45,190 nucleotides of DNA from a phage: sequence record PZ050807.1; one strand, given 5' to 3'. The position numbers and the translations under genes were made by a program. Shown here one piece after another: positions 1-45,190 of this stretch. How positions within the stretch are numbered: the first letter of the stretch is position 1; every line of letters begins with the position of its first letter. The notes below the pieces were generated by a model. The model saw only the letters and a list, made by a program, of their open reading frames with translations. It searched no databases and had not been told where the DNA came from.

Positions 1-91
1 TTAACGCTAAAAACCAGGCTGTAACGGCGAAGAACGACGCCGTGTCTGCTAAGAACGATGCGCAGACTGCGAAGACTGCCGCAGAAACAGC
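1..91. repeat. Terminal direct repeat; identical copy at 45100..45190, showing the window wraps a circular or circularly permuted genome unit of 45,099 bp
   Basis: Base-by-base comparison of window start and end: 91/91 identical. Confidence 0.9.
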
Positions 92-1589
92 GCGCACACA
101 GGCCCAGTCGGCTAAGACCGCCGCAGAGTCAGCACGTGACGACGCGCAGACGGCTAAGACTGCCGCAGAAACAGCACGCACCCAGGCACAGACCGCGAAG
201 ACCGCCGCAGAAACCGCCCAGGGTGCGGCGGAAGACGCCCGCGATGAGGCGAAGCAATATGCAGAGCAAGCCGGAGCACCATATAAGCAGGTATTACAAC
301 CGCTACCAGACGTGTGGGTTCCGTTTAACGATTCGCTGGATATGCTCGCAGGCTTCGCGCCAGGATACAAGACGGTTACGGTAGCCGACGACGAGGTTAC
401 TATGCCGAGCGACAAGGTGGTGTCGTTTAAGCGCGCATCAACGGCAACATATATTAACAAGTCCGGCGAGTTTAAAATCGCAGAGATTGACGAGCCGAGA
501 TTCGAAAAATACGGCCTGCTCATTGAAGGGCAACGCACTAACTATTTCTCCAACTCCAACACGCCGGAATCATGGAATACAAATCCGCGTCTGACGCGCA
601 GCGAAACTAAGACTGACAGTCGCGGTTTTACTTACGCAACATTTACGCCAGGAAGTTATGTAGGACAGGTCGGTACGTACACGATTATTGCGGGATCGTC
701 GGCAAGTCCCATTGACGCAGTGCAAGACGACCATGTAACCATTTCGTTTAGGGCTAAGGGTGCTAAGCTGCGAATTGGTGCGCGATTTGACAAGGGAAGC
801 CCACTAACCACGGTAGCGATCATGTACGTGGATATGGACGACCTTTCCGTATCCACATCGGGGGCTGACGCTGATAATCTGGTGGTGAAAAACGTATCCC
901 GCGATGGGGAATGGGTGCTGGTTGAAGCTATTTATAAGGTGACGGACGACTCCGCCCAGGTTCGCGGGGTGGTATCGATGGCTAACCAAATCGGCGGCGC
1001 TCTGTTTGACGCAACCAGCACCGTCGATGTCACTACACCGCAAGTGGAGTTAGGAATTAGTGCGTCGTCGTTTATCCCAACCGCCAGCACGCCAACGACG
1101 CGAGCAAGCGATATGGTTAATATCCCAGTAACCAACAATCTACCAAACATTCCGATTAGTGTGATGACCGAAGTGCGCCGCGGTTGGGATAAAGCGCCTA
1201 GTTCGGCACCGAGGATTGCGAACACCATCGGCGTTGCAAATAACAGCGAACAGATTATTCTGGCGTTCCGCAATCCGGCGGATCCATCGGTGCAGCCGCT
1301 ACCATATGCGCAGATGGGTGTGGCACAGGCCTACGTGCCTGCGGGGTTACAACCAGGCAGGCTTATGGTGGCGGGATTCGTCGGCGGGTCAAATGGGAAG
1401 TTCAAAGCGGTTGTAAACGGCACTATGTCGCCGGAGTCTACGTCTAACTGGGCCGGGCCAGGGGCCGCCACTCAAATCCGAATCGGCGGGTCTTCGGCAG
1501 GTGGCGAGCGCCACCTTTTTGGGCACGTCCGTAACTTCCGCATCTGGCATAAAGCACTGACCGACTTACAAATGGGAGAATTAGTATGA
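1..1589 (+). CDS. Side tail fibre protein, C-terminal part (continues in frame from 44652..45190 across the window join)
   Basis: Frame at position 3 is continuous with the ORF starting at ATG 44652 once the 91-bp overlap is superimposed; Ala/Lys/Thr/Gln-rich tandem peptide repeats (AKNDAQTAKTAAETARTQAQ...) typical of fibre shafts; the internal GTG at 42 is unlikely to be the true start. Confidence 0.6.
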   Translation, partial: NAKNQAVTAKNDAVSAKNDAQTAKTAAETARTQAQSAKTAAESARDDAQTAKTAAETARTQAQTAKTAAETAQGAAEDARDEAKQYAEQAGAPYKQVLQPLPDVWVPFNDSLDMLAGFAPGYKTVTVADDEVTMPSDKVVSFKRASTATYINKSGEFKIAEIDEPRFEKYGLLIEGQRTNYFSNSNTPESWNTNPRLTRSETKTDSRGFTYATFTPGSYVGQVGTYTIIAGSSASPIDAVQDDHVTISFRAKGAKLRIGARFDKGSPLTTVAIMYVDMDDLSVSTSGADADNLVVKNVSRDGEWVLVEAIYKVTDDSAQVRGVVSMANQIGGALFDATSTVDVTTPQVELGISASSFIPTASTPTTRASDMVNIPVTNNLPNIPISVMTEVRRGWDKAPSSAPRIANTIGVANNSEQIILAFRNPADPSVQPLPYAQMGVAQAYVPAGLQPGRLMVAGFVGGSNGKFKAVVNGTMSPESTSNWAGPGAATQIRIGGSSAGGERHLFGHVRNFRIWHKALTDLQMGELV

Positions 1590-8327: not shown

Positions 8328-8606
8328 TTATGCGACCAATTCCGCAACCAATAAATCAGCGTCGTGAATGTTGTCGATTACGCGAACGTCGGCCCCGCGC
8401 TTCGCCATGCGCTCATGTTCACGTACCTGGTGCGGCTTCGGCTTACCACCGGGGCGCTTCACTTCAACGAATACGACTCTGCCGTTGATGATGATAATCA
8501 GGTCGGGGGCGCCGGTACGCCCTTCCCATGCCATTTTACGGCAGAATCCACCTGCCTCTTTTACCTCTTTCATCAGGTGACTTTGCACCTTGCCTTCAGG
8601 AGTCAT
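8328..8606 (-). CDS. VRR-NUC domain nuclease
   Basis: PDLIIIINGRVVFVEVKRPGGKPKPHQ matches the VRR-NUC (PD-(D/E)XK) signature; TAATG overlap with the polymerase stop. Confidence 0.6.
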   Translation of the reverse strand: MTPEGKVQSHLMKEVKEAGGFCRKMAWEGRTGAPDLIIIINGRVVFVEVKRPGGKPKPHQVREHERMAKRGADVRVIDNIHDADLLVAELVA

Positions 8607-10894
8607 TATTTTCTATACCTGTACATGATGTCGCCTTCAGCGGCGAGCGGGAAGCCCTTAGCCCACACCGGCAGATCGCACATTAACCGGCATAACTCTT
8701 CGGTCGTGTAATCGTCCGTGTCCGGCACTTCGGTGATTAATTCATCGTGCACCGACAGGACGATTTCGTATCCCGCCGCTTCGACACCAGGCATAGACCA
8801 TGCGAGAATATCGCGACACAGCGCCTGCACGATGTTCTCCGTCAGTTTGCCGCCGTAGGTGTACTGGAAGCCCCACTGGCGCGTCGTCTGATTCTCGCCC
8901 TGATATTTAATGCGGGTGCTGGTTTTCTTCTTGCCAGTATCCTCATCGATTTCAGTCGTGACAGACAGCGCAATCCCCGGATAGCTCATGATACGACCGG
9001 ACGGCAACTCCACTTTCAACCACCAGCCTGGCGCGTCCGGGTCGTCCCGCTCATCGTCAAACGTAGGGTCGTGCTTCGCCTTCGTGCGCATGATTTTAAG
9101 CGCCTGTTTGCCGTCTGGACGCACATTAGCACCGGCCCAGTATGATTTACCTGGATTGCGGATTGCGCACAGCACAGCATCTTCCAGTTCGGCCCAGAAT
9201 CTAACCGTTTCCGGGTGGGACTCACGCCACATACGCTTGATCGCATCGCAGGTAAGCCACACGTTCTTCGGCAGGATGTAAGTCGGTCGCTCGTCTTTCT
9301 TGCCGGGCTTCGGCGGACGCTTCGCTTCATTAATCCTCGCGTACTCGTACCCGCGTTTCGCTGCGGCCCATATGTGATCCGGGAACGTGCCTTTCATCAC
9401 GTCTGCCATCGCATACAGGTCAAGACCCAGGTTTTTGGCAAACTGCAAGAACGCCGCAACGCCGCCGCCGTAGCCGAGGCCCAATTCACACGCCTTACCG
9501 ATCTGGCGGAGGTCTTTGCGGTTGGCCTTGATATAATCCGGGTCGAGGCCGAACATCTTACCGGCAGTTTCGCAATAAATATCGCGTCCCGCCTTAAAGA
9601 CCATCAACGCAGTTTTCTCGCCCGCAATCCAGGCAAGGCCGCGTCCTTCCACGTTGGAGTAGTCCGCTACAACAAACTTCTTACCCTTAGCCGGGATAAT
9701 GCAGCCGCGTACGGTCGATGCTGTCAGCTTAGATATGTCGTACGCCCAGTGTGCGGTCCCGCGTAATAGGGAATTGATGCCGTTGGTTAGCATGTGCGAC
9801 CGGACCCAAAACGACACGTCGCTTTCACCATCACGGCGCTTGATCTTGCCTTCGTGGTCGTCGCTGTACTCGCCACGCGCCAGGTTTTGAGGCTGAAAAC
9901 CTTTACCGGCCCAGCGCAATGTTCGTTTAGCACCACCATACTGAAGACAACCACGGCGGCGACCGTCAGACGACAGACCGTTAACGAGCGGATTGTATTT
10001 GGTCGACGCCGTTGATGACGCACCGAGGCGCATTTCAATCAGAACTTTGCCCTCGTCCGGGAAGTCCGGGTCTTCCAGCAAATCATTCAGTGTGGATTTC
10101 TGCGCGTTATGGATAGTGAAAGCTGGCGCAATATCTCGTAACAACGGCAGGAAATCATTTCCGGTCAGCTTACCGCCAAACTTCTCCATCGCTTCTTCTT
10201 TCAGTTCTTCCTTGTGCGCTTCAACGGCCTTGATGGCGGCGTAGGCCAGTTCGGTGTCCACGTTGAAGCCGCGGTCATTGATCAACTGGTCAATTGCCAG
10301 TATCTGGTCTTCCTTCGGAGTATTACCCCAATCCGGGATACGCCAGTACACTTCACGCATCGCGATAATATCGAAGCGTGCATACTTGAGGAATTTGGCC
10401 CACTCTTCCGGGTGAGTCTCGCGAGTGTAGCGACGGACTTTGTAAGTCTTCGGCGTTGGCTTACAGAATCGCTTAATCAGCGCCTTGCCCGCTTTATCTT
10501 TCGCATGTTCAGCGTCAACGCCCAATACCTGGCATTGCATGTCAAGGCTGCCGGGGAGGGCGTGACGGAAGGCCATAATCATGGTGTCTTCGATCTGGCA
10601 AACCGGCAGGTCAATACCCCACTTCTCACGGATAACCAGGCGGTCAAACAGGAGGCCGTTAGCCATTACGATTTTTGCTTTCTTGCGGACTACCGCACGC
10701 AATGCCTTACGCAGTTCACTCGGCATCTTCGGCGATTCAGTAGCGTCCCACGTCTGAACACGGCCTTCATCAATGGCGTAGGTGCAGACCATGATTTCCG
10801 TGGTTGGGTGTTCTGCATACGCGTATGCGCCGACCTTCTTCAGATCAACGCCGCTAAACGTTTCGGTATCGAGGAATAGTCGTTCGAAGTTCAT
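8606..10894 (-). CDS. DNA polymerase, family A (T7/Pol I-like, with 3'-5' exonuclease)
   Basis: Exo I motif FLDTETFSG; motif B RQIGKACELGLGYGGG; motif C VLSVHDEL; start set at MNFERLF (ATG 10894). Confidence 0.9.
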   Translation of the reverse strand: MNFERLFLDTETFSGVDLKKVGAYAYAEHPTTEIMVCTYAIDEGRVQTWDATESPKMPSELRKALRAVVRKKAKIVMANGLLFDRLVIREKWGIDLPVCQIEDTMIMAFRHALPGSLDMQCQVLGVDAEHAKDKAGKALIKRFCKPTPKTYKVRRYTRETHPEEWAKFLKYARFDIIAMREVYWRIPDWGNTPKEDQILAIDQLINDRGFNVDTELAYAAIKAVEAHKEELKEEAMEKFGGKLTGNDFLPLLRDIAPAFTIHNAQKSTLNDLLEDPDFPDEGKVLIEMRLGASSTASTKYNPLVNGLSSDGRRRGCLQYGGAKRTLRWAGKGFQPQNLARGEYSDDHEGKIKRRDGESDVSFWVRSHMLTNGINSLLRGTAHWAYDISKLTASTVRGCIIPAKGKKFVVADYSNVEGRGLAWIAGEKTALMVFKAGRDIYCETAGKMFGLDPDYIKANRKDLRQIGKACELGLGYGGGVAAFLQFAKNLGLDLYAMADVMKGTFPDHIWAAAKRGYEYARINEAKRPPKPGKKDERPTYILPKNVWLTCDAIKRMWRESHPETVRFWAELEDAVLCAIRNPGKSYWAGANVRPDGKQALKIMRTKAKHDPTFDDERDDPDAPGWWLKVELPSGRIMSYPGIALSVTTEIDEDTGKKKTSTRIKYQGENQTTRQWGFQYTYGGKLTENIVQALCRDILAWSMPGVEAAGYEIVLSVHDELITEVPDTDDYTTEELCRLMCDLPVWAKGFPLAAEGDIMYRYRK

Positions 10895-11061
10895 TGTTTC
10901 ACCCTTACCACGGCCTCGGCGTCCCCTTTCAGAGAGTAGATGCCGTCGGTTATTGTGATTATGTCGTCGTTCTGTTTCACTTCGGCAACCGTGAAGTATT
11001 CGCCCAGGAATTTGGACCACACGCGCATTCCCGGTTTCACATCTTTAGCTTTAATTCTCAT
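10891..11061 (-). CDS. Small protein, 56 aa, translationally coupled to the DNA polymerase
   Basis: My own translation MRIKAKDVKPGMRVWSKFLGEYFTVAEVKQNDDIITITDGIYSLKGDAEAVVRVKQ; stop overlaps the polymerase ATG (ATGA); RBS AGGA; absent from the ORF track because it is under 60 aa. Confidence 0.35.
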   Translation of the reverse strand: MRIKAKDVKPGMRVWSKFLGEYFTVAEVKQNDDIITITDGIYSLKGDAEAVVRVKQ

Positions 11062-11075
11062 TACATTGTCCTATG

Positions 11076-11099
11076 AAAAAGCCCGCATAAAGCGGGCTT
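11076..11099 (-). terminator. Intrinsic terminator (minus strand)
   Basis: Hairpin AGCCCGC-TTTAT-GCGGGCT followed by TTTTT on the minus strand. Confidence 0.55.
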
Positions 11100-11117: not shown

Positions 11118-11891
11118 TTAGCGGCGTCGACGTTTACGTGGTGCTTCGTCTTCGTCATCGTCGTCATCTTCATCGCGTGACTTGCGACGTTTACGCGGCT
11201 TATCGTCTTCATCGTCGTCATCTTCATCACGGCGGCGCTTAGACTTGCGCGGTTTTTCATCTTCATCATCGTCGTCACGACGTTTTGACTTTTTGGATTT
11301 ACGCGGTGCTTCGTCTTCGTCATCATCCAGGTCGTCGTCAGAGCAATATGCACCGCCGCCGCCACCGAAGGAATCCCCATCATCACGGAAGCGCATACCC
11401 AGCAGACCACAGCCTAAGCCTTTGCCGTTGGTATTGTTCCAGGCCCAAATATCTAAGGAAACGTTGCAATAGCAACCGGAATAGATTTCCTTCCCTTCGA
11501 TTTCGTCGCCGTCGATGGTCAGACCCTGCTCCGTCTGCTTCTCGCCTTCGGAAGTCTGGATGATCGGCTGTTTGAATGATTTAGCGTTGATATACAGCTT
11601 ACCTTCAAACTCTTCCGTTACTTCTTCACGCTCATCTCCATCTCGAACGGCACATTCTTTCGAATCCTGCGCGTAGTGGCGGTCCATCCACTTATCGGCG
11701 TTCTTCTCAGACTTCAGTTTTTCGGTGAGCACTGCGCGTGCCGCCGCTTCCACTTTGTCCACCTGCGGATCTTCTTTATCAAGAATAATCACCGCACGAT
11801 ATGCCGGTTTTTGTCCATCCTGTTTAGGGGTATCACGCTCCCAAATTTTCAGGAAGCATACACGTACATTTTTCAGGTTGACTTTAGCCAT
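11118..11891 (-). CDS. Putative ssDNA-binding protein (gp2.5-like) with a long repetitive charged C-terminal tail
   Basis: N-terminus MAKVNLKNVRVCF resembles gp2.5-type SSBs; acidic C-terminus; start at ATG 11891 with RBS GAGGAA. Confidence 0.45.
   Translation of the reverse strand: MAKVNLKNVRVCFLKIWERDTPKQDGQKPAYRAVIILDKEDPQVDKVEAAARAVLTEKLKSEKNADKWMDRHYAQDSKECAVRDGDEREEVTEEFEGKLYINAKSFKQPIIQTSEGEKQTEQGLTIDGDEIEGKEIYSGCYCNVSLDIWAWNNTNGKGLGCGLLGMRFRDDGDSFGGGGGAYCSDDDLDDDEDEAPRKSKKSKRRDDDDEDEKPRKSKRRRDEDDDDEDDKPRKRRKSRDEDDDDDEDEAPRKRRRR
11121..11335. repeat. Imperfect tandem repeats of about 50 nt encoding (D/E)-rich/PRKSKRR peptide units
   Basis: Visible in both DNA and protein: DEAPRKSKKSKRRDDDDEDE / KPRKSKRRRDEDDDDED / DKPRKRRKSRDEDDDDDEDE / APRKRRRR. 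Confidence 0.5.
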
Positions 11892-11987
11892 TTTCCAATT
11901 CCTCATTTCACATGTATCGGGGTTATTAGAAGCCACCCCGTCCGGCTTGGTTGCTAATGTACTTGGTTGCGTTTCCGCGGTCAAGTG

Positions 11988-12222
11988 TTATTTATCAAAA
12001 AGTTTTAAAATCAGGTCGAGATATTTGTGCAGCCACACCAGTGGAGGGCGGTGCACGTTGTTTTCCATCCAGTTCAAACAGGCTTCGTTATAGCCGTCGT
12101 CCCATAAGCGGGATGGGTGGCGAATCATCCAGGCCAGCGCCAGCAGACCGCCGCAGGTATGTACTACGAATCCCAGCGCCGCAAGCGGCAGCACCATAAT
12201 CATTGCCAGAATCTTATTCATC
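11988..12222 (-). CDS. Small membrane protein, 78 aa
   Basis: Hydrophobic segment ILAMIMVLPLAALGFVV; start chosen at MNKIL. Confidence 0.4.
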
Positions 12223-13644
12223 GCCCAAATCCTCGTCGCTTGCTTCTTGCCATTCCGGGCGCGGGTCGTCAACTGGTGCCAGGACCGGTTTCGCCGGCGC
12301 ACGCGTGATTTTATCTTGCAGTTTCGCCCACACTTTCGGTTTCTCATCCTTCAGCACCTTCTCGGCATCAGTAGGGCTGATTAATGATTCCTTGTACATC
12401 AGGTCGCGCTTGATCCGGGCCGTTGTGAATACGGCGATAACTTCGCTTTCATCCTTCCACTTACGCGCACCTTCACGACCAGCTACCAGCTTCAGGCCCA
12501 GCGCTTCGCCGTCACCGGCTAACACTGCTTTGAATACGGCAGCCTCGATCGCTTTGATGTGCTGGCGCATGGTTTCCAGGCCGTCGTAAGCCTTCTTCAG
12601 TTCTTCCGTGGTCATAGCACCGGCTGGCGCTTCTTTCTTTCCACGCTTCGCACGTCGGGCAGCTTTCCGAGCTTCGAGGTCCATGTTCTGGTCGTGGTTT
12701 TTGCATTCTTCCTCGGCGGCAATGCTTACATCGTCACCCAGGTCTTCGTCGGTTGCCGTTGGTGGCGTTATTGTGTCGATGGCGGCTTTAGCGCGGGCAC
12801 TACATTGGTCCGCAAATCGACACCACTGACACGCATCGGCGCTCGGACGGAAGTCTGCACGGGTGAGATTCTTCTTACCCTTAGCGAGGGCATCCAGGGC
12901 GGCTACTGCGCGTTTTGCTGCGTACTTGGCGAAGATTTCCAGTGCTTCCACCGAAATATCCCACTCCGACGCCCCGCCGCAATACGGCTGGAATATGACC
13001 AGGCGCACGGTTGTTATGTCGTACATCTTTTGCAGCTTGCGCAGCAGTCCGAGCGCATACAGCATAAGCTGTTTGTTCTCTTTCGCCTCGACCTTATGGC
13101 GTCCGGTCTTCAGGTCGCCCACAATGAGCATGTACGTGCCGTCGGTCTTCTTCATCACCATAACCATATCGGCAGTACCGAAGGTCTTGATCGCTTCGCC
13201 GTCAATCTCGTAGCCTTTGTGCAGGACGCGAGTCAGATCCGCGCGCATCTCAAGCTGGACAAACTCGGCAACTTCAAGCAGCGGTCGCCAGTGGTCGATG
13301 TACGCGTCGCACTGTTTCACCATGTCGTCAGTTACCAGGATGGCGTCCTTAGGTGCTTTCGCTGCCGCTTTAACTGGTCCTTTACCCTGATTTTCGACGT
13401 AGCACCCTTTATATGTCTTCGCCGTGATGTGGTCTTCGCCTGCAATGATGCGGTTTAGTACCACTTCAGATACGGTGTGCATACTCGTACCGTTGATCGC
13501 GGCTTGCCCGGATTCGTTCGGAATACCTTTCTCCACCACCAGGGCGGCGGGACACCCCATCCATTTTTTAGCGCCGGATGGGCCAAGTAATGAGTGTTCT
13601 GTATTACTGCCGGATTGCGTCTTGCGCTTCGCTTTGATAGCCAT
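12214..13644 (-). CDS. PD-(D/E)XK exonuclease, Cas4/RecB-like with Cys cluster (recombination exonuclease)
   Basis: Nuclease core TADMVMV...LIVGDLKTG...QLMLYAL; cysteines in CQWCRFADQC; long charged C-terminal extension. Confidence 0.7.
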   Translation of the reverse strand: MAIKAKRKTQSGSNTEHSLLGPSGAKKWMGCPAALVVEKGIPNESGQAAINGTSMHTVSEVVLNRIIAGEDHITAKTYKGCYVENQGKGPVKAAAKAPKDAILVTDDMVKQCDAYIDHWRPLLEVAEFVQLEMRADLTRVLHKGYEIDGEAIKTFGTADMVMVMKKTDGTYMLIVGDLKTGRHKVEAKENKQLMLYALGLLRKLQKMYDITTVRLVIFQPYCGGASEWDISVEALEIFAKYAAKRAVAALDALAKGKKNLTRADFRPSADACQWCRFADQCSARAKAAIDTITPPTATDEDLGDDVSIAAEEECKNHDQNMDLEARKAARRAKRGKKEAPAGAMTTEELKKAYDGLETMRQHIKAIEAAVFKAVLAGDGEALGLKLVAGREGARKWKDESEVIAVFTTARIKRDLMYKESLISPTDAEKVLKDEKPKVWAKLQDKITRAPAKPVLAPVDDPRPEWQEASDEDLGDE

Positions 13645-14131: not shown

Positions 14132-14632
14132 TTAGTCTTCCAGTTCGAAATAGGTTTCGACAATTTCTTTCAGTTCGGTGTGGAAGTCTTCAACGTCGTC
14201 ATCTTCCAGCTTAGCCACAGTCTTGATTTCGAACGATTCCAGCAGGTCGTCAAATTCGTCGTTCGCGTCGTCATCGTCGCCGCCTGCAATGATTGCCGCG
14301 TATTGTGCAATTTCATCGCGCATTTCTTTCAGTGGATCGGCGTCTTTCTTAGCCTTGCCTTTGCCCTTGCCTTTGGCTGGCTTTTCTTCCGGTTCGTCTT
14401 CGTCGTCATCTTCTACGACTTCTTTTTTCGCCTTGCCCTTAGCCGTGGACTTCTTAGCAGGTTTCTTATCTTCCTGCTCGTCATCTTCGTCTTTGGCTTC
14501 TTCTTTCTTAGCCTTAGACGGTTTCTTATCTTCCTGCTTACCAACGGCAGCGCCATGGGTTTCGTAATGTTTAGCGATGGTTTCCAGTGCTACTACGCCG
14601 CGAGTAATCAGATTCAGGATTTGCTCAAACAT
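14132..14632 (-). CDS. Highly charged low-complexity protein (first gene of the leftward early operon)
   Basis: Start at MFEQIL (ATG 14632, RBS GGAGA); long K/E/D-rich region and acidic C-terminus (DDDDANDEFDDLLESF...EDDDVEDF). Confidence 0.5.
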   Translation of the reverse strand: MFEQILNLITRGVVALETIAKHYETHGAAVGKQEDKKPSKAKKEEAKDEDDEQEDKKPAKKSTAKGKAKKEVVEDDDEDEPEEKPAKGKGKGKAKKDADPLKEMRDEIAQYAAIIAGGDDDDANDEFDDLLESFEIKTVAKLEDDDVEDFHTELKEIVETYFELED

Positions 14633-15189: not shown

Positions 15190-17454
15190 ATGAGAAATAT
15201 AGAATTTGCGATCACACCCCCCGCTAAGAAAGGCGAATCTGCGGTAGCTCATAACCAGTCCATGACTACCGCCGAGTTTTTCGAATTTATCCAGGATGCA
15301 CCGGTAGTGTCGTCAGTTTGCATTAACGGTACTGAAGATAAAAAAGAATATGCGCGACGTAAGCGTAAAGGCGACGGCATTGTGGCTACAACCGCCGATG
15401 GCACGCGTAAAAAGACTGGCGTGGTTAGCCGCTCGATCCTGTTCTTCGACCTGGACCGTGCTGACAACCGCACACTTACCCGCTGCCGCAGGGCTTTCCG
15501 CAAGTCCGGCCTGGAATATGTCTACCACACCACCACCGGCGACCGCCACCCGTTGAAAGACGGCAAGCGCTGTGTGCGTTTCCTGGTGCTGACAAACAAG
15601 CCAGTTCCGGCGGAAGACTTGGGTCGCGCGCAGGCTGCACTGCTTGAGCAACTGGGTCTTACCGACGCGGGCTTTGATGACTGCTCGAAAGACACAAACC
15701 GCCTTATGTACCTGCCCCACCAGCAGGCTAAGGTCGAGTGTCATGAGGGTGAACGCGCTAACGTGCGTCGTCTGCTTCGCCTGGCTGACAAGATGGGTAT
15801 TGAGCAGGAAACGTTTCGCCGTGAACTGGTGCAGGGCGACGACGAGCAGATGAACGGCATCCTCGACTGGTGTTTCCAGGCTGGTTTTGAGCCGTTACCA
15901 TCCGGGCGCGGTTATGAAGTACCGTGCCCAAACGAACATCTGCACTCTGGTGAAGGGTCTACCGCTATCATGCTTAAGGATGGCGAGATTCGTTTCAAAT
16001 GTATGCACACCGGCAACGGATGCTGTTCTGAACTGAACAAACACCAACACCTGGCGCTGCGAATGATTGGTATCCCGGATATTTATAACGTGGAACCTCA
16101 CAACATGTCGCGCAAACAGATCTCGGCAATCCTGCCCGGACTGGACGATGAAGAAGTGGACGCGCAGTATGAGCACATGGTCGATCTGGTTGGCGAAGGT
16201 GAGGATTATGCGTCCTGTACTGACGCAGACCTGGAAGACGAACCAACGGCACTGTTCTCTAAACACGACCCGATCATCGAAGGTCTGATTAACTTCAAAT
16301 CGACCTGGTACGCAGCGGGTGAGTCGAACATTGGTAAATCCTTCTACATCCTGGGTCAGATGGCTGCCGTTGCCGCGGGCATCCCGTTCGGGGGCGCGAA
16401 GGTCGTCCAGTCGCATTGCTTCTACTTCGATGCGGAAGGTGGCGAGGCGTCCATCCAGCGTAAAGAAGCATTGCAGATTAAATATGAGCATGATCTTGAC
16501 AAGCTGCACATTGTTGACCTTCAGGCACGCGGCTGGGATATTACGAGCAAATCCGGCCTGCGTGAAGTAATCAGCTTTATCAACCGCACAGCGGATGGGG
16601 AACCGGTCGGCCTGGTGGCGTTCGACTCCCTTAACCAGACCGTGGCCCTGCGCTCGGCAGATGCCAAACCGTTCGACGAGAACAACGCAAGCGATATGGG
16701 TGAGATTGTCAAAGCGCTGAAGTCCATTGCGGAAAACACAGGAGGCAGTGCGGGCGTCATTCACCACCCGGCGAAGGGTGCAAACGGCAGCCGATCCCCG
16801 CGTGGGTCCGGTGCGCTACATGGCGCGGTGGATTCTGCATTCTTCCTGGAACAGCCAGACGAGAATCAGCCCGGACAGCTTAACCTGTATCATGAGAAAG
16901 CCCGTAACGGCGTAAAACAGGGTCCACGCGGCTTCGTACTACTTAAGTGCAAAGTGTCCATTAACGAGCGCAAGTCCGACACGTTCGAAGCGCACCAGTC
17001 CACTAACCCTGGTCCAGACTTCGGCGATGTGGTTGCCGGTTGGGACGTCAAGCCAATCCAGGCCACCCCGCGTGATGAGACTCTGTACCTTGTACCGGTA
17101 GCTCTGGCCCCGTTCGCTATCGAACAGGCGAAGGCCGCGGGCAAGCAGGCTGTTAAGGAAGAAAACCCCGCCGGTCCGCGCAATGAAAAAGAGAAAGTGC
17201 TTTACGCAGCGCTCGAAGCGTTGATGGAAGAGAATCCGGGACACCATGGCTTCAGCAAATCGGCAATCGTCCGCAAAGCCGGACTGGCGAAAGGTGGCAC
17301 ATCGACGAAGCCAATAGACGATATGCGTGAGCGCGGAATCATCGGCTTTTACAAAGACCCTGACACCGGGGCCATTTACGGGTCGTCGAATCTGGTTATC
17401 AATTCACAAATACCTATGCAATTGACGGCGACGGACGACGACCTTAAAGATTAA
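15190..17454 (+). CDS. DNA primase / replicative helicase fusion (primase-like N-terminal domain plus P-loop ATPase)
   Basis: Walker A GESNIGKSFYILG, Walker B LVAFDSLNQ; N-terminal primase-like region with Cys/His cluster (CPNEHLHSGEGS...CMHTGNGCC). Confidence 0.8.
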   Translation: MRNIEFAITPPAKKGESAVAHNQSMTTAEFFEFIQDAPVVSSVCINGTEDKKEYARRKRKGDGIVATTADGTRKKTGVVSRSILFFDLDRADNRTLTRCRRAFRKSGLEYVYHTTTGDRHPLKDGKRCVRFLVLTNKPVPAEDLGRAQAALLEQLGLTDAGFDDCSKDTNRLMYLPHQQAKVECHEGERANVRRLLRLADKMGIEQETFRRELVQGDDEQMNGILDWCFQAGFEPLPSGRGYEVPCPNEHLHSGEGSTAIMLKDGEIRFKCMHTGNGCCSELNKHQHLALRMIGIPDIYNVEPHNMSRKQISAILPGLDDEEVDAQYEHMVDLVGEGEDYASCTDADLEDEPTALFSKHDPIIEGLINFKSTWYAAGESNIGKSFYILGQMAAVAAGIPFGGAKVVQSHCFYFDAEGGEASIQRKEALQIKYEHDLDKLHIVDLQARGWDITSKSGLREVISFINRTADGEPVGLVAFDSLNQTVALRSADAKPFDENNASDMGEIVKALKSIAENTGGSAGVIHHPAKGANGSRSPRGSGALHGAVDSAFFLEQPDENQPGQLNLYHEKARNGVKQGPRGFVLLKCKVSINERKSDTFEAHQSTNPGPDFGDVVAGWDVKPIQATPRDETLYLVPVALAPFAIEQAKAAGKQAVKEENPAGPRNEKEKVLYAALEALMEENPGHHGFSKSAIVRKAGLAKGGTSTKPIDDMRERGIIGFYKDPDTGAIYGSSNLVINSQIPMQLTATDDDLKD

Positions 17455-17580: not shown

Positions 17581-17755
17581 TGCATAAAACAAACGGGACA
17601 AAAACGGGACAAACGACAAACGGGACAAAACGGGACGTCCCGCCGTCCCCCTCAGGAGTGGCGCGGGTTTGAGGCAAACGGGACAAGCGGGACAGACCAC
17701 AGTCTTTCAGACTAGACGGGGGGTATGGTCCCCCCTCCGTCTGAGACTGCATAAA
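17581..17755. repeat. Structured non-coding element A: ACGGGACA iterons, CGGGACGTCCCG palindrome and a long stem-loop; paralogue of 34104..34440
   Basis: Direct comparison with copy B: about 150 bp near-identical. Confidence 0.6.
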
Positions 17756-34103: not shown

Positions 34104-34106
34104 ATA

Positions 34107-34430
34107 GCGGGACAGCGGGACGTCCCGTTTTTGTCCCGCTGTCCCGCCCCGCCAAAAACTGCATACCTATTCAGAAATACTGCATAAAACCAAAACGGGA
34201 CAAAAACGGGACAAGCAGGACGTCCCGCCTCAAAAGTGCATATCTATGCAGTTTTCATGCATAAAACGAACGGGACAAAAACGGGACAAACTGCAAGCGG
34301 GACAGAGCGGGACGTCCCGCCGTCCCTGCCAGAGCTGCCGCGGGTTTCAGCCGATCGGGACAGGCGGGACAAAGCCAAGTCTTTCAGACTAGACGGGGGT
34401 CAATGGCCCCCTCCGTCTGAGACTGAATAA
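34107..34430. repeat. Structured non-coding element B: GGGAC/GTCCC iterons, palindromes and a conserved stem-loop; paralogue of 17581..17755
   Basis: Several ACGGGACA iterons, three GGGACGTCCC palindromes, 13-bp inverted repeat GCGGGACAGCGGG/CCCGCTGTCCCGC, hairpin at 34378..34425. Confidence 0.6.
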
Positions 34431-44651: not shown

Positions 44652-45190
44652 ATGGCAGCGGGTACACTTAACGTAACAAACAACAGCAAGGCCGTAACGG
44701 GGTCGGGCACGACGTTTACGTCATTGAAAGCGGGCGACTTTTTATCGCTGGTGGTGGGGCAAGTCCCGTACACCGTCGCTATTGAGTCAATCCAGAGCAA
44801 CACGGCGCTTACGCTGGCGCTGCCGTTTGACGGCCCAACGTCTACCGGTCTGGCGTGGGACTCCGTATCCCGCGATACGATGTCGCTGGCGACTATGGGT
44901 GTGACCGTACAGGCGCAGAAAGCGCTACGCATGTTGATTGCTGATGAAAACAACTGGCGAGCAATCTTCGGCGACGCAGAGCAAATCAGCGTGACACTGC
45001 CAAACGGCACGGTTATGCAGGGTATGTCGTGGGGATATTTGTCCAGCCTTCTAAAAGACGTCGATCCGGTTGAGCTTCAGAATATTGCCAACCAGGCGGT
45101 TAACGCTAAAAACCAGGCTGTAACGGCGAAGAACGACGCCGTGTCTGCTAAGAACGATGCGCAGACTGCGAAGACTGCCGCAGAAACAGC
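44652..45190 (+). CDS. Side tail fibre protein, N-terminal part (runs off the window end; continues at 1..1589)
   Basis: ATG 44652 with RBS GAGGAG; open to the window end; in frame with the ORF at the window start. Confidence 0.6.
   Translation, partial: MAAGTLNVTNNSKAVTGSGTTFTSLKAGDFLSLVVGQVPYTVAIESIQSNTALTLALPFDGPTSTGLAWDSVSRDTMSLATMGVTVQAQKALRMLIADENNWRAIFGDAEQISVTLPNGTVMQGMSWGYLSSLLKDVDPVELQNIANQAVNAKNQAVTAKNDAVSAKNDAQTAKTAAET
45100..45190. repeat. Terminal direct repeat (second copy of 1..91)
   Basis: 91/91 identity with the window start. Confidence 0.9.

What the first reader, a model, noticed from the sequence alone, without database searches (positions are those of the whole stretch)
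11118..11335. Tandem DNA repeats encode a four-unit acidic/basic repeat tail on the SSB-like protein
The 3' 210 nt of the gene consist of imperfect tandem repeats of about 50 nt encoding alternating blocks (DDDDEDE / PRKSKRR). gp2.5-type SSBs use an acidic C-terminal tail to recruit polymerase and helicase; here the tail is repeated and interleaved with basic blocks, and is a likely hotspot for repeat expansion or contraction.
Basis: seen in the sequence. Interest (0 to 1): 0.45.

Follow-up and report, generated by a model that had tools for sequence, protein, structure and literature searches.

The report
Variable acid/basic repeat tail on phage SSB
[quoted passage not shown] This is a real and so far undescribed variant of the purely acidic tail these proteins normally use to organise DNA replication.

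Summary
The gene lies on the minus strand (11118..11891) of a Dhillonvirus genome (99.7% identical to LM40P1). Residues 1-170 are a T7 gp2.5 / Enc34 ORF6-type OB-fold SSB, supported by Pfam PF10991, the AF2 model and Foldseek. Residues 185-257 are four [acidic run - x-Pro-Arg - basic run] units, predicted to be disordered.

- **Charge pattern:** the blockiness exceeds all 2000 shuffles.
- **DNA repeat:** it is weak and mostly follows from the protein repeat. Two exact 20-nt direct repeats do exist, and one pair flanks a clean 54-nt unit deletion in a near-identical isolate.
- **Variation:** 47 distinct tails from relatives carry 1-4 units.
- **Conserved features:** acidic and basic residue counts co-vary (r=0.95). 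Net charge stays near -7. 135 of 140 basic blocks start x-P-(R/S/A). The terminal DEDEAPRKRRRR is under purifying selection.
- **Contrast with the family:** most other family members have a short acidic tail with a hydrophobic end.
- **Shared motif:** (S/T)(D/E)(D/E)DL occurs in the SSB tail and at the C-termini of the helicase-primase and the exonuclease. It is probably the true docking motif.

Best reading: a canonical acidic docking segment followed by a charge-neutral block-polyampholyte extension that tunes self-association and autoinhibition. That mechanism is inferred, not shown. I rate it a new variant of a known kind, of moderate interest.

The parts
11118..11891 (-). SSB gene (257 aa plus stop), T7 gp2.5 / Enc34 ORF6 type
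   Evidence: ORF and translation. PF10991 E=3e-31. PHROG 112. It is the ortholog of the SECphi4/SECphi18 SSB.
11382..11891 (-). OB-fold ssDNA-binding domain, aa 1-170
   Evidence: AF2 pLDDT is above 90. Foldseek hits: 4klk E=3.5e-12, 5odl E=2e-11, 1je5 E=2.7e-6. W149, N153, K104 and F13 align with Enc34 Trp150, Asn154, Arg112 and Tyr30.
11340..11381 (-). Gly-rich hinge, aa 171-184 (DGDSFGGGGGAYCS)
   Evidence: pLDDT drops to about 65. F168 and G172 are nearly invariant in the family. This is the site of the 1-nt deletion in phage Ioannina.
11310..11342 (-). Proximal acidic segment S-DDDL-DDDEDE (aa 184-194), containing the shared (S/T)(D/E)(D/E)DL motif; net charge -9
   Evidence: Conserved as CSDEDL / ATDDDL / ANDDDL in 44 of 47 distinct tails. 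The same motif sits at the C-termini of the helicase-primase and the exonuclease.
11277..11309 (-). Basic block 1, APRKSKKSKRR (end of unit 1)
   Evidence: the x-P-R start is conserved.
11229..11276 (-). Unit 2, DDDDEDE-KPRKSKRRR
11175..11228 (-). Unit 3, DEDDDDEDD-KPRKRRKSR; absent from OZ035811
11121..11174 (-). Unit 4, DEDDDDDEDE-APRKRRRR. The terminal block is conserved as protein.
   Evidence: The last 12 codons show 35 synonymous and 1 nonsynonymous codon differences across 16 comparisons with other distinct genes. 28 of 47 distinct tails end RRRR.
11209..11228 (-). Exact 20-nt direct repeat, copy A (GATGAAGATGACGACGATGA)
   Evidence: Together with copy B it flanks the 54-nt deletion seen in OZ035811.
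11155..11174 (-). Exact 20-nt direct repeat, copy B
11075..11099 (-). Terminator-like hairpin plus U-run just after the stop codon (AAGCCCGC-UUUAU-GCGGGCUU-UUU)
   Evidence: RNA fold shows an 8-bp stem in the centroid structure. The consensus terminator scan did not call it.
11956..11984 (-). Sigma-70-like promoter match upstream of the SSB gene (TTGACC-17-TACATT)
   Evidence: consensus match only. One SECphi4 Retron-Eco8 escape mutation lies in the intergenic region upstream of its SSB gene.
17431..17445 (+). TDDDL motif, 2 residues from the C-terminus of the replicative helicase-primase (gene 15190..17454)
   Evidence: Conserved in all Dhillonvirus loci examined and in Tsm2 (ATYDDLE*); the SETP7 and NTEC3 ends are weaker variants (TTEGDLE*, VTEEDLE*).
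12226..12240 (-). SDEDL motif, 3 residues from the C-terminus of the DUF2800 PD-(D/E)XK exonuclease (gene 12214..13644)
12739..12753 (-). Internal TDEDL motif in the same exonuclease

Best explanation
**What it is (shown).** This is the intrinsically disordered C-terminal tail of the phage's replication and recombination SSB, a T7 gp2.5 / Enc34 ORF6-type OB-fold protein of a Dhillonvirus. The tail has two parts.
- A proximal acidic segment, S-DDDL-DDDEDE, with net charge about -9. It corresponds to the whole short tail of ordinary family members. It carries a motif, (S/T)(D/E)(D/E)DL, that is also found at the C-termini of the helicase-primase and the exonuclease.
- A distal, almost charge-neutral block-polyampholyte extension. 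It is built from modules of [acidic run - x-Pro-Arg - basic run] and ends in oligo-Arg.

The modules are gained and lost in frame by slippage or unequal recombination between short exact direct repeats. This gives 1-4 modules among relatives.

**How it most likely works (inferred).**
- The proximal segment does the classical gp2.5 jobs. It occupies the OB groove in cis, which enforces ssDNA selectivity, and it docks on a site shared with the helicase-primase and exonuclease tails.
- The alternating blocks act as an electrostatic zipper. Basic blocks pair with acidic blocks of the same chain in free protein, partly neutralising the autoinhibitory tail. On ssDNA they pair with acidic blocks of neighbouring SSB molecules. 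The result would be salt-sensitive, multivalent SSB-SSB association (cooperative coating, possibly condensate-like). Its strength would scale with module number.

My confidence that the description is right is about 0.95. My confidence in the zipper and cooperativity mechanism is about 0.4.
For: **Domain identity:**

**Disorder:** pLDDT is about 50 with no secondary structure for aa 181-257.

**Blocky charge pattern:** 0 of 2000 shuffles reach it and kappa is about 0.6. Across 47 distinct tails the blockiness z-score has a median of 7.7 and a minimum of 4.4.

**Charge balance:** acidic and basic counts correlate at r=0.95. Net charge is about -7 whether there are 2, 3 or 4 blocks. The proximal block is about -8 to -9 and the distal part about +1.5.

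**A directional motif, not mere composition:** 135 of 140 basic blocks start x-P-(R/S/A). No basic-to-acid boundary linker contains Pro.

**Purifying selection on the terminal block:** 35 synonymous against 1 nonsynonymous codon differences.

**In-frame unit changes in near-identical isolates:** one deletion is flanked by an exact 20-nt direct repeat.

**Shared docking-like motif:** 4 hits in all six-frame ORFs against 0.16 expected (0 of 300 shuffles). It is conserved at or near the C-termini of the exonuclease and helicase-primase in Dhillonvirus and Tsm2, with weaker variants at the SETP7 and NTEC3 helicase-primase ends.

**Family background:** of 148 representative homologs, 130 have non-mixed tails, and 120 of those have a hydrophobic last or penultimate residue.

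**Precedents from papers:**
- The Enc34 acidic tail confers ssDNA-over-dsDNA selectivity and lies in the groove of a neighbouring molecule in the crystal (PMC5686142).
- The T7 acidic tail binds the polymerase and the helicase-primase.
- E. coli SSB disordered linkers are reported to mediate cooperativity and phase separation (titles and abstracts of PMC7584906 and 10.1101/2022.01.17.476650).
Against: - There is no biochemical or genetic test of this tail in any paper I could find.
- Module number differs between near-identical isolates without obvious cost, so valency is only loosely constrained.
- Three independent database records carry a 1-nt frameshift that replaces the whole tail with an M/T/K-rich out-of-frame peptide: Ioannina, vB_EcoS-22664B1 and one metagenomic contig. 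If these are real and not sequencing errors, the tail is dispensable for plaque formation.
- Charge neutrality of the extension follows automatically if whole acid-plus-base units are duplicated. It is therefore not strong evidence of selection.
- Laboratory escape mutations of Dhillonvirus SSBs from Retron-Eco8 and from a second defence system all map to the OB core (T56P, N152H, F106V), not to the tail.
Confidence: 0.5

Rival explanations
1. The basic blocks are accessory nucleic-acid-binding arms of the histone-H1 / SPKK type (x-P-R-K-...). They would give the SSB extra affinity for DNA, for example ss/ds junctions or duplex. Alternatively they would promote strand annealing alongside the neighbouring exonuclease. 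The interleaved acidic blocks would then be cis-inhibitors released on DNA binding.
For: - Nearly every basic block begins x-P-R/K followed by K/R/S. Some relatives have literal SPRK or TPRR.
- PHROG 112 is annotated as an SSB and annealing protein. The gene sits next to a PD-(D/E)XK exonuclease.
- A second protein of the module (phrog_3127, 14132..14632) carries KKPAKK / KPAKGKGK H1-like blocks with the same grammar.
- The Enc34 core binds dsDNA once its acidic tail is removed, so tail charge controls DNA specificity in this family.
Against: - In the window no block has the S/T of SPKK, and no AT-hook RGRP core is present (sequence).
- Each basic block is flanked by equally long acidic runs. 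The extension is net neutral, which should strongly damp DNA binding.
- There is no direct test.
Confidence: 0.25
2. The distal repeats are a tolerated, slippage-driven low-complexity expansion with no specific function beyond that of a flexible spacer. Only the OB domain and the proximal acidic segment matter.
For: - Copy number varies even among isolates that are about 99.5-99.7% identical over the 1.5-kb query (two of them) and 97.7% (the third), and the third assembly differs further.
- Short exact direct repeats provide the mechanism.
- Three records carry frameshifted tails.
- Other lineages of the family carry quite different mixed-charge repeats, such as DDDDDRGSRSRSR and RD/RG.
- Lab escape mutations never hit the tail.
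Against: - The terminal block is conserved as protein despite synonymous change (35 synonymous to 1 nonsynonymous).
- The x-P-R junction is present in 135 of 140 blocks.
- All tails keep strict block alternation (minimum z-score 4.4).
- Every complete tail I translated has at least one acid-plus-base module: 47 distinct tails, including Dhillonvirus, Jerseyvirus SETP7, Kagunavirus NTEC3 and Serratia phage Tsm2.
- Nearly all length changes are in frame.
Confidence: 0.12
3. Tail variation is driven by the host-defence arms race. The tail would be a decoy or DNA mimic, or would modulate how defence systems that sense phage SSB (Retron-Eco8 and others) see the protein.
For: - The orthologous SECphi4 SSB is a demonstrated trigger of Retron-Eco8, and SSB mutations let Dhillonviruses escape at least one further defence system.
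- Long acidic runs resemble DNA mimics (own knowledge).
- Length polymorphism at strain level.
Against: - All reported escape mutations are in the OB core or the promoter.
- Deleting the T7 C-tail does not affect Retron-Eco8 activation (PMC13402713).
- Nothing links tail length to host range.
Confidence: 0.05
4. The repeats are a DNA-level element, such as iterons or an origin inside a replication gene as in lambda O, and not primarily a protein feature.
For: Four roughly evenly spaced repeats lie inside a replication gene.
Against: - The periodic DNA identity is no higher than the synonymous-codon null.
- Units differ at synonymous sites, and so do orthologs.
- Copy number ranges from 1 to 4.
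- Much better iteron-like clusters, A(A/G)CGGGACA, lie in non-coding DNA at 17592-17694 and 34106-34362.
Confidence: 0.02

Closest known systems
SSB of Dhillonvirus SECphi4 / SECphi18 (predicted Gp2.5-family SSB; trigger of Retron-Eco8; Stokar-Avihail et al., bioRxiv 10.1101/2022.08.27.505566)
   Same: It is the ortholog. It shares the OB domain, the hinge, the SDEDL motif and the same [acid - xPRK - base] modules ending PRKRRRR. SECphi4 has 3 modules and SECphi18 has 4.
   Different: Module number and details differ. [quoted passage not shown] The tail itself has not been analysed.
Enterobacter/Hafnia phage Enc34 ORF6 (PF10991, PDB 5odj/5odl)
   Same: Same fold and family. The ssDNA-stacking Trp150, Asn154 and Arg112 are conserved or conservatively replaced (W149, N153, K104). 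The C-terminal segment is unstructured and begins with an acidic stretch.
   Different: The Enc34 tail is short and purely acidic: 16 of its last 29 residues are D/E. According to the cloning primer it ends WDEDEV. It has no basic blocks and no repeats.
T7 gp2.5 acidic C-terminal tail
   Same: - OB fold followed by an FGGG hinge, then an acidic disordered tail.
- The tail competes with ssDNA for the groove and docks the polymerase and helicase-primase (Marintcheva 2008 as cited).
- The helicase-primase carries a similar acidic C-terminal tail, and here the shared motif is TDDDL.
- T7 even has one small basic patch, SAKASKPR, between two acidic stretches (sequence).
   Different: T7 has a net strongly acidic, non-repetitive tail whose C-terminal Phe232 is needed for interaction with the T7 DNA polymerase. 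This tail is four modules, near-neutral distally, and ends in RRRR.
E. coli SSB intrinsically disordered linker plus acidic tip (DDDIPF)
   Same: A disordered, length-variable region between or after the OB domain and a docking motif. The titles and abstracts listed (PMC7584906, 10.1101/2022.01.17.476650) report that it mediates non-nearest-neighbour cooperativity and phase separation.
   Different: From my own knowledge, the E. coli linker is Gly/Gln/Pro-rich and uncharged, with the docking tip at the very end. Here the linker-like part is highly charged (fraction of charged residues 0.84) and lies after the docking-like motif.
T4 gp32 (basic N-terminal cooperativity domain with the LAST motif, plus an acidic C-terminal domain)
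   Same: It combines a K/R/S-rich basic element for SSB-SSB cooperativity with an acidic autoinhibitory and partner-binding element (and my own knowledge).
   Different: The fold is unrelated in detail. The two elements sit at opposite ends of gp32 and are not repeated. The strict (K/R)3(S/T)2 pattern is absent here.
Alternating charge patches of the alpha-proteobacterial RNase E C-terminal IDR (BR-bodies)
   Same: A disordered region of alternating positive and negative blocks. In that case it is necessary and sufficient for electrostatic phase separation (PMC12691583). A weak compositional PDB hit of the tail to a Ribonuclease E entry (4oxp, E=0.002) was also seen.
   Different: It is a different protein in a different context (RNA decay). 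Condensation by this SSB is untested.

Membership tests
T7 gp2.5 / Enc34 ORF6-type SSB (Pfam PF10991, PHROG 112) | Sequence match to the family profile above the curated threshold | tested here: met
   PF10991 scores 108.7 bits against a cut-off of 26, E=3.4e-31. PHROG 112 scores E=3.5e-56.
T7 gp2.5 / Enc34 ORF6-type SSB (Pfam PF10991, PHROG 112) | T7-type variation of the OB fold | tested here: met
   The AF2 model has pLDDT above 90 for aa 1-170. Foldseek hits: 4klk, 5odl (target TM 0.76) and 1je5 with E=2.7e-6.
T7 gp2.5 / Enc34 ORF6-type SSB (Pfam PF10991, PHROG 112) | Conserved ssDNA-contact residues (Enc34 Trp150 stack, Asn154, Arg112, Tyr156, Tyr37, Tyr30) | tested here: inconclusive
   W149=Trp150, N153=Asn154, K104=Arg112 and F13=Tyr30 are kept. 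Tyr156 aligns with N155 and Tyr37 with T21. The paper itself says the binding surface is only partly conserved in the family.
T7 gp2.5 / Enc34 ORF6-type SSB (Pfam PF10991, PHROG 112) | Preferential ssDNA-binding activity | not testable with these tools
   This needs EMSA or anisotropy. The ortholog from SECphi4 behaves as an SSB-type trigger of Retron-Eco8 in vivo.
T7 gp2.5 / Enc34 ORF6-type SSB (Pfam PF10991, PHROG 112) | Located in the phage replication module | tested here: met
   The gene is flanked by the DUF2800 PD-(D/E)XK exonuclease, the family A DNA polymerase and the helicase-primase.
Canonical gp2.5-type acidic C-terminal tail | Unstructured, net-negative C-terminal segment after the OB fold | tested here: met
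   pLDDT is about 50 with no secondary structure. The tail has 35 acidic and 27 basic residues, net -8.
Canonical gp2.5-type acidic C-terminal tail | Essentially no basic residues; short (about 25 aa) | tested here: not met
   There are 27 K/R in 74 residues. The family median tail is 25 aa. 130 of 148 representatives have non-mixed tails.
Canonical gp2.5-type acidic C-terminal tail | Aromatic or hydrophobic last residue (T7 Phe232, E. coli ...IPF) | tested here: not met
   The tail ends ...APRKRRRR. 120 of 130 ordinary homologs have a hydrophobic last or penultimate residue. A hydrophobic residue within an acidic context does exist proximally, at DDDL.
Tandem DNA repeat (micro/minisatellite in a coding region) | Head-to-tail DNA copies detectable at the DNA level, beyond what the encoded peptide implies | tested here: inconclusive
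   Tandem Repeats Finder finds no roughly 54-nt period. The repeat finder finds 4 copies at 63-76% identity. Periodic identity is not above the synonymous-codon null, but exact 20-mers are in excess.
Tandem DNA repeat (micro/minisatellite in a coding region) | Copy-number polymorphism among close relatives | tested here: met
   Three LM40P1 assemblies carry 4, 3 and 3 units. The wider clade carries 1-4.
Charge-patterned (block polyampholyte) phase-separating IDR, RNase E-like | Alternating patches of opposite charge in a disordered region | tested here: met
   Kappa is about 0.6 and 0 of 2000 shuffles reach the observed blockiness. The region is predicted disordered by AF2.
Charge-patterned (block polyampholyte) phase-separating IDR, RNase E-like | Salt-sensitive condensation in vitro or foci in vivo that depend on the patches | not testable with these tools
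   This needs purified protein or imaging.
T4 gp32 LAST motif | [quoted passage not shown] | tested here: not met
   The basic blocks RKSKKSKRR, RKSKRRR, RKRRKSR and RKRRRR contain no [KR]3[ST]2 (sequence). The resemblance is in composition only.
AT-hook / SPKK minor-groove motifs | R-G-R-P core (AT-hook) or S/T-P-K/R-K/R (SPKK) | tested here: not met
   The window has APRK and KPRK, with no RGRP and no S/T before the Pro. Some relatives have SPRK or TPRR.

The most novel reading that the evidence does not exclude
The block-polyampholyte tail is a valency-tunable 'sticker' array that drives electrostatic co-condensation of SSB-coated ssDNA into a phage replication or recombination compartment. 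The phrog_3127 protein of the same module uses the same acid - x-P-x-K - base grammar and is also length-polymorphic, so it would take part too. Helicase-primase, exonuclease and polymerase would be recruited through the shared TDDDL motif. Natural 1-4-module alleles would set the material properties of the condensate. This would be a T7-type SSB whose tail logic is inverted: a basic end, with the docking motif internal.
Probability: 0.15. Interest if true: 0.7.

Novelty: new variant of a known kind. Interest (0 to 1): 0.45.

Why it matters
SSB tails are the hubs through which replisome, recombination and repair proteins are organised. The textbook rule for bacterial and phage SSBs is an acidic tail with a hydrophobic tip.

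This case shows a large, well-sampled clade of enterobacterial siphophages whose T7-type SSB instead ends in oligo-arginine and carries a near-neutral, strongly charge-segregated repeat array. The clade includes Dhillonvirus, Jerseyvirus, Kagunavirus and relatives, with about 940 matching phage records in all for the family.

- Natural alleles with 1-4 modules form a ready-made allelic series for testing how charge patterning and valency of a disordered tail affect SSB cooperativity, autoinhibition and possible condensation.
- The shared TDDDL motif gives a concrete, testable map of replisome contacts in a phage group that is widely used in defence-system screens.
- The ortholog in SECphi4 is the known trigger of Retron-Eco8.

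It is not a new kind of system, and no function is demonstrated.

Tried and rejected
- **Tandem Repeats Finder** on the whole window at minimum score 30 does not report the roughly 54-nt period. I used the repeat finder and my own scripts instead.
- **Covariation of module number** between the SSB tail and the mixed-charge region of the phrog_3127 protein. Four genomes suggested a trend. Fourteen Dhillonvirus loci showed none, for example 2 against 4 and 3 against 2. Rejected.
- **Immune-escape link.** The Dhillonvirus SSB escape mutations in the Stokar-Avihail supplement are T56P, N152H, F106V or upstream of the gene. None is in the tail. The T7 tail is dispensable for Retron-Eco8 activation.
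- **Iteron or origin idea.** Rejected on the synonymous-codon null and on copy-number variation.
- **Programmed frameshift into the open alternative frame.** I considered this because three records read that frame. I found no slippery site. I attribute the openness of that frame to GAY/AAR/CGN composition; that and the claim that the third frame has TAA stops come from reading the codons, not from a computed test. The three shifts occur at three different positions. I treat them as independent 1-nt indels or sequencing errors. This is unresolved.
- **LAST, AT-hook and SPKK membership.** Strict patterns are absent.
- **Literature.** The Mol Cell paper on Retron-Eco8 and SSB (PMC13210406) is not held. 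The DARNA and Hna preprints concern T7, T4, T5 and 5A SSBs and say nothing on this tail.
- **Comparison of the first 22 tail codons** across genes was invalidated by a 1-residue indel, which shifted the register. I ignored it.
- **Consensus terminator scan** did not call the hairpin after the stop codon. RNA folding shows it.
Full report
**1. What is at the coordinates**

The finding lies in the 3' end of a minus-strand gene, 11118..11891. The ATG is at 11891 with a GAGGA 8 nt upstream, and the stop is at 11118-11120. The mechanical ORF list extends it to a TTG at 11984. However, SECphi4 and SECphi18 annotations and all relatives begin at MAKVNLK.

The last 73 codons are four units:

| Unit | Window coordinates | Peptide |
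|---|---|---|
| U1 | 11277-11339 | DDDLDDDEDE-APRKSKKSKRR |
| U2 | 11229-11276 | DDDDEDE-KPRKSKRRR |
| U3 | 11175-11228 | DEDDDDEDD-KPRKRRKSR |
| U4 | 11121-11174 | DEDDDDDEDE-APRKRRRR |

The 74-residue tail, counted from S184, has 35 acidic and 27 basic residues. Its fraction of charged residues is 0.84 and its net charge is -8.

**2. Is it more than chance?**

At the protein level, clearly yes.
- The local charge-asymmetry variance is 0.474 against 0.094 +/- 0.039 for composition-preserving shuffles (0 of 2000 reach it).
- That is about 0.6 of the value for full charge segregation.
- Charge autocorrelation peaks at a lag of 18 residues.

At the DNA level the picture is more modest.
- The repeat finder reports four 46-nt copies spaced 57/54/54 nt at 63-76% identity.
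- Tandem Repeats Finder does not call that period.
- The 55% identity at offset 54 is no better than for the same peptide re-encoded with synonymous codons drawn from neighbouring genes (1309 of 2000 reach it).
- What does exceed that null is the number of exact repeated k-mers (11-mers 35 of 2000; 14-mers 26 of 2000).
- This is due to two exact 20-nt repeats: GATGAAGATGACGACGATGA at the starts of U3 and U4, and GATGACGAAGACGAAGCACC in U1 and U4.

So the 'tandem DNA repeat' is mainly the shadow of a protein repeat, with some recent DNA-level duplication or conversion.

**3. What the protein is**

The window is essentially a whole Dhillonvirus genome. The query region is 99.7% identical to LM40P1 OZ035746 and about as close to phage Ioannina; 155 phage records match, nearly all coliphages.

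Evidence for the N-terminal domain:
- The protein hits Pfam PF10991 (Enc34_ssDNA-bd, formerly DUF2815) at E=3e-31.
- It hits PHROG 112, 'Gp2.5-like ssDNA binding and annealing protein'.
- PDB sequence hits are 4klk, 4jg2 and Enc34 ORF6 5odj/5odk.
- An AF2 model built on a 68-sequence alignment has pLDDT above 90 for residues 1-170. pLDDT is about 65 for the Gly hinge and proximal tail, and about 50 with no secondary structure for the remainder.
- Foldseek against the PDB returns 4klk, Enc34 ORF6 with ssDNA (5odl, target TM 0.76) and T7 gp2.5 (1je5, E=2.7e-6).
- Enc34 Trp150, Asn154, Arg112 and Tyr30 align with W149, N153, K104 and F13. Tyr156 and Tyr37 are not kept.

The neighbours are a DUF2800 PD-(D/E)XK exonuclease (12214..13644), a family A DNA polymerase (8606..10894) and a helicase-primase (15190..17454). 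A hairpin plus U-run follows the stop codon.

SECphi4 and SECphi18 are Dhillonviruses. Their orthologous SSB is the published trigger of Retron-Eco8. That paper modelled residues 1-186 only and did not display the flexible C-terminus.

**4. Relatives: copy number really varies**

| Source | Tail state |
|---|---|
| OZ035746 (LM40P1) | 4 units, identical to the window |
| OZ035811 (LM40P1) | 3 units; lacks exactly 54 nt (one unit), with breakpoints inside the 20-nt direct repeat |
| OZ035780 (LM40P1) | 3 units, with a different junction and a longer acidic run |
| Ioannina | 4 units at DNA level, but a 1-nt deletion in GGCGGCGGCGG shifts the frame |
| IMG/VR Dhillonvirus contigs, database proteins | 2, 3 or 4 units on OB domains at least 88% identical |
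| SECphi4 / SECphi18 | 3 / 4 units |
| Serratia phage Tsm2 | 3 units |
| Jerseyvirus SETP7, Kagunavirus NTEC3 | a single unit (...VDDLEDDEDETPRRERRRNR) |

In 47 distinct mixed-charge tails the automated count of basic blocks was 0 (1 tail), 1 (1), 2 (9), 3 (23) and 4 (13). The '0' is the single-unit NTEC3 tail, which fell below the counting threshold.

**5. What is conserved in the tail**

- Every tail is strongly blocky, with z-scores against shuffles of 7.7 (median) and 4.4 (minimum).
- 135 of 140 basic blocks begin x-P-(R/S/A): APR 42, KPR 39, RPR 18. No basic-to-acid boundary linker contains Pro. The unit is therefore directional: [acidic run]-x-Pro-Arg-[basic run].
- Acidic and basic residue counts correlate at r=0.95. 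Net charge is about -7 for 2, 3 or 4 blocks. The proximal acidic segment carries -8 to -9 and everything distal sums to about +1.5.
- 28 of 47 tails end RRRR. The last 12 codons (DEDEAPRKRRRR) show 35 synonymous against 1 nonsynonymous codon differences across 16 comparisons with other distinct genes. The OB domain shows 646 against 117. The comparisons are not phylogenetically independent, but they show that protein-level conservation tolerates synonymous change.
- 44 of 47 tails start with (C/A)(S/T/N)-D-(D/E/N)-D-L right after the hinge.

**6. How unusual within the family**

An exhaustive HMMER search found 2041 homologs at E<=1e-3 among 1.84 billion cluster representatives. Of the best 150, 148 have a scorable tail.
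- 130 are ordinary. The median tail length from the larger set is 25 aa, they are acidic, and 120 of 130 have a hydrophobic last or penultimate residue.
- 18 (12%) are mixed-charge.

Some mixed-charge lineages use quite different units: DDDDDRGSRSRSR x6, DDDDDDRRSSRRR x4, and a 170-aa RD/RG tail. These keep an acidic-hydrophobic tip (...SDLVD...DDDI...DDLV). Charge-balanced repeat expansions have therefore arisen more than once in this family. In the Dhillonvirus/Guernseyvirinae clade the expansion is distal to the docking-like motif and the protein ends basic.

**7. A shared motif in the replisome proteins**

Searching all six-frame ORFs of at least 50 aa for [ST][DE][DE]DL gives exactly four hits:
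- the SSB proximal tail (CSDDDLDD);
- the C-terminus of the helicase-primase (TATDDDLKD*);
- the C-terminus of the exonuclease (EASDEDLGDE*);
- an internal site in the exonuclease (TATDEDLGDD).

Shuffles give 0.16 on average and 0 of 300 reach four.

The helicase-primase C-terminal motif is kept in all the Dhillonvirus loci examined; the exonuclease C-terminus was recovered in only a few of them. Acidic D-L endings of the same type occur in three other genera:

| Phage | Helicase-primase C-terminus | Exonuclease C-terminus |
|---|---|---|
| SETP7 | TTEGDLE* | VTEDDLEA* |
| NTEC3 | VTEEDLE* | VTEEDLE* |
| Tsm2 | ATYDDLE* | ASDVDLA* |

This mirrors T7, where gp2.5 and the gp4 helicase-primase have similar acidic tails that dock on the polymerase (own knowledge; tail-polymerase/helicase contacts). 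I infer that this motif, and not the repeated blocks, is the partner-docking element. The target (polymerase, or the SSB groove) is unknown.

**8. Mechanism**

Shown:
- the tail is disordered and charge-segregated;
- its distal part is near-neutral;
- it has a directional module;
- its length is polymorphic through in-frame unit changes at short direct repeats;
- its terminal block is under protein-level constraint.

Inferred:
- The proximal acidic segment performs the gp2.5/Enc34 functions. In Enc34, deleting the acidic tail lets the core bind dsDNA, and in the crystal the tail lies in the groove of a neighbouring molecule (PMC5686142).
- The alternating blocks pair electrostatically in cis and in trans between neighbouring SSBs on ssDNA. 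This would give tunable, salt-sensitive cooperativity or condensation.

Precedents:
- E. coli SSB linkers are reported to mediate non-nearest-neighbour cooperativity and phase separation (titles and abstracts of PMC7584906 and 10.1101/2022.01.17.476650).
- T4 gp32 combines a basic cooperativity element with an acidic tail.

Rivals are H1/SPKK-like DNA-binding arms that aid annealing, a neutral slippage-driven spacer, an arms-race decoy, and a DNA-level element. They are weighed in the rival section.

The strongest caveats are the complete lack of experiments and three database records with frameshifted tails. If those are real, the tail is dispensable in the laboratory.

**9. Novelty and verdict**

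The protein family, its fold and even this ortholog are known. I found no paper that describes or analyses the mixed-charge repeat tail. It fails two defining features of the canonical gp2.5-type tail: it has basic residues, and it lacks a hydrophobic C-terminal residue. It keeps the others.

I file it as a new variant of a known kind and rate its interest as moderate. It offers a natural allelic series for the biophysics of disordered SSB tails and a testable docking motif. It is not a new system.

Noticed in passing
window 17431-17445 (+), 12226-12240 (-), 12739-12753 (-), 11325-11342 (-): A short acidic motif (S/T)(D/E)(D/E)DL occurs only in replication proteins: near the helicase-primase C-terminus, near the exonuclease C-terminus and once internally in the exonuclease, and in the SSB proximal tail. 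There are 4 hits against 0.16 expected. It is conserved in Dhillonvirus and Tsm2, with weaker variants at the Jerseyvirus and Kagunavirus helicase-primase ends. It is a likely shared docking motif, analogous to the T7 gp2.5 and gp4 tails.
   Followed up: partly
window 14132-14632 (-): A 166-aa protein of unknown function (phrog_3127) in the same module has a central mixed-charge repeat region with the same grammar: acidic run - (K/A)P(A/S)K - Lys-rich run, for example EDKKPSKAKK and EEKPAKGKGKGKAKK. It has an acidic C-terminal half. Its block number varies from 2 to 4 among Dhillonvirus loci and does not co-vary with the SSB block number.
   Followed up: partly
window 10891-11061 (-): A 56-aa ORF (phrog_10102) lies between the SSB and polymerase genes. 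It is the ortholog of the SECphi6/SECphi18 '56aa protein of unknown function'. An E21 frameshift in that protein appears among defence-escape mutants in Table S2 of Stokar-Avihail et al. I did not determine which defence system.
   Followed up: partly
L001 (phage Ioannina OQ589852), P0002 (vB_EcoS-22664B1), P0008: Three independent records have 1-nt frameshifts at different positions in or before the tail. All read the same open alternative frame, giving an M/T/K-rich tail (...MTKTKHHVNVAAVKGKAHYSSPL...) that runs through the terminator hairpin. These may be sequencing errors or viable tail-less variants. This is unresolved.
   Followed up: partly
window 17592-17694 and 34106-34362: Two clusters of the 9-mer A(A/G)CGGGACA (6 and about 10 copies, mostly direct), the first of which begins about 140 nt after the helicase-primase stop. 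There are 27 matches with up to 1 mismatch against 10.7 expected. They look like iterons or operators.
   Followed up: partly
window 53-217 and 45158-45178: A 42/84-nt tandem repeat (GC-rich, about 3.9 copies) lies at the start of the window. The 9-mer TGCGAAGAC array recurs at both ends of the window. The window is therefore probably a whole, circularly permuted genome with a short terminal overlap (45190 nt against 45119 nt for LM40P1).
   Followed up: no
P0196, P0217, P0177, P0077, P0065, P0151 (homologs from metagenomes): Other DUF2815 SSB lineages carry unrelated charge-balanced tail repeats: DDDDDRGSRSRSR x6, DDDDDDRRSSRRR x4, a 170-aa RD/RG tail, and EAPKKKSKS...KKKR. Several retain an acidic-hydrophobic tip. 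This suggests recurrent evolution of polyampholyte SSB tails.
   Followed up: partly
T7 gp2.5 sequence quoted: The T7 gp2.5 tail region reads FGGG-EDDWADEVEE-NGYVASGSAKASKPR-DEESWDEDDEESEEADEDGDF. That is an acidic/aromatic segment, then a small basic patch ending KPR, then the acidic tail. It may be a one-module precursor of the architecture seen here.
   Followed up: no
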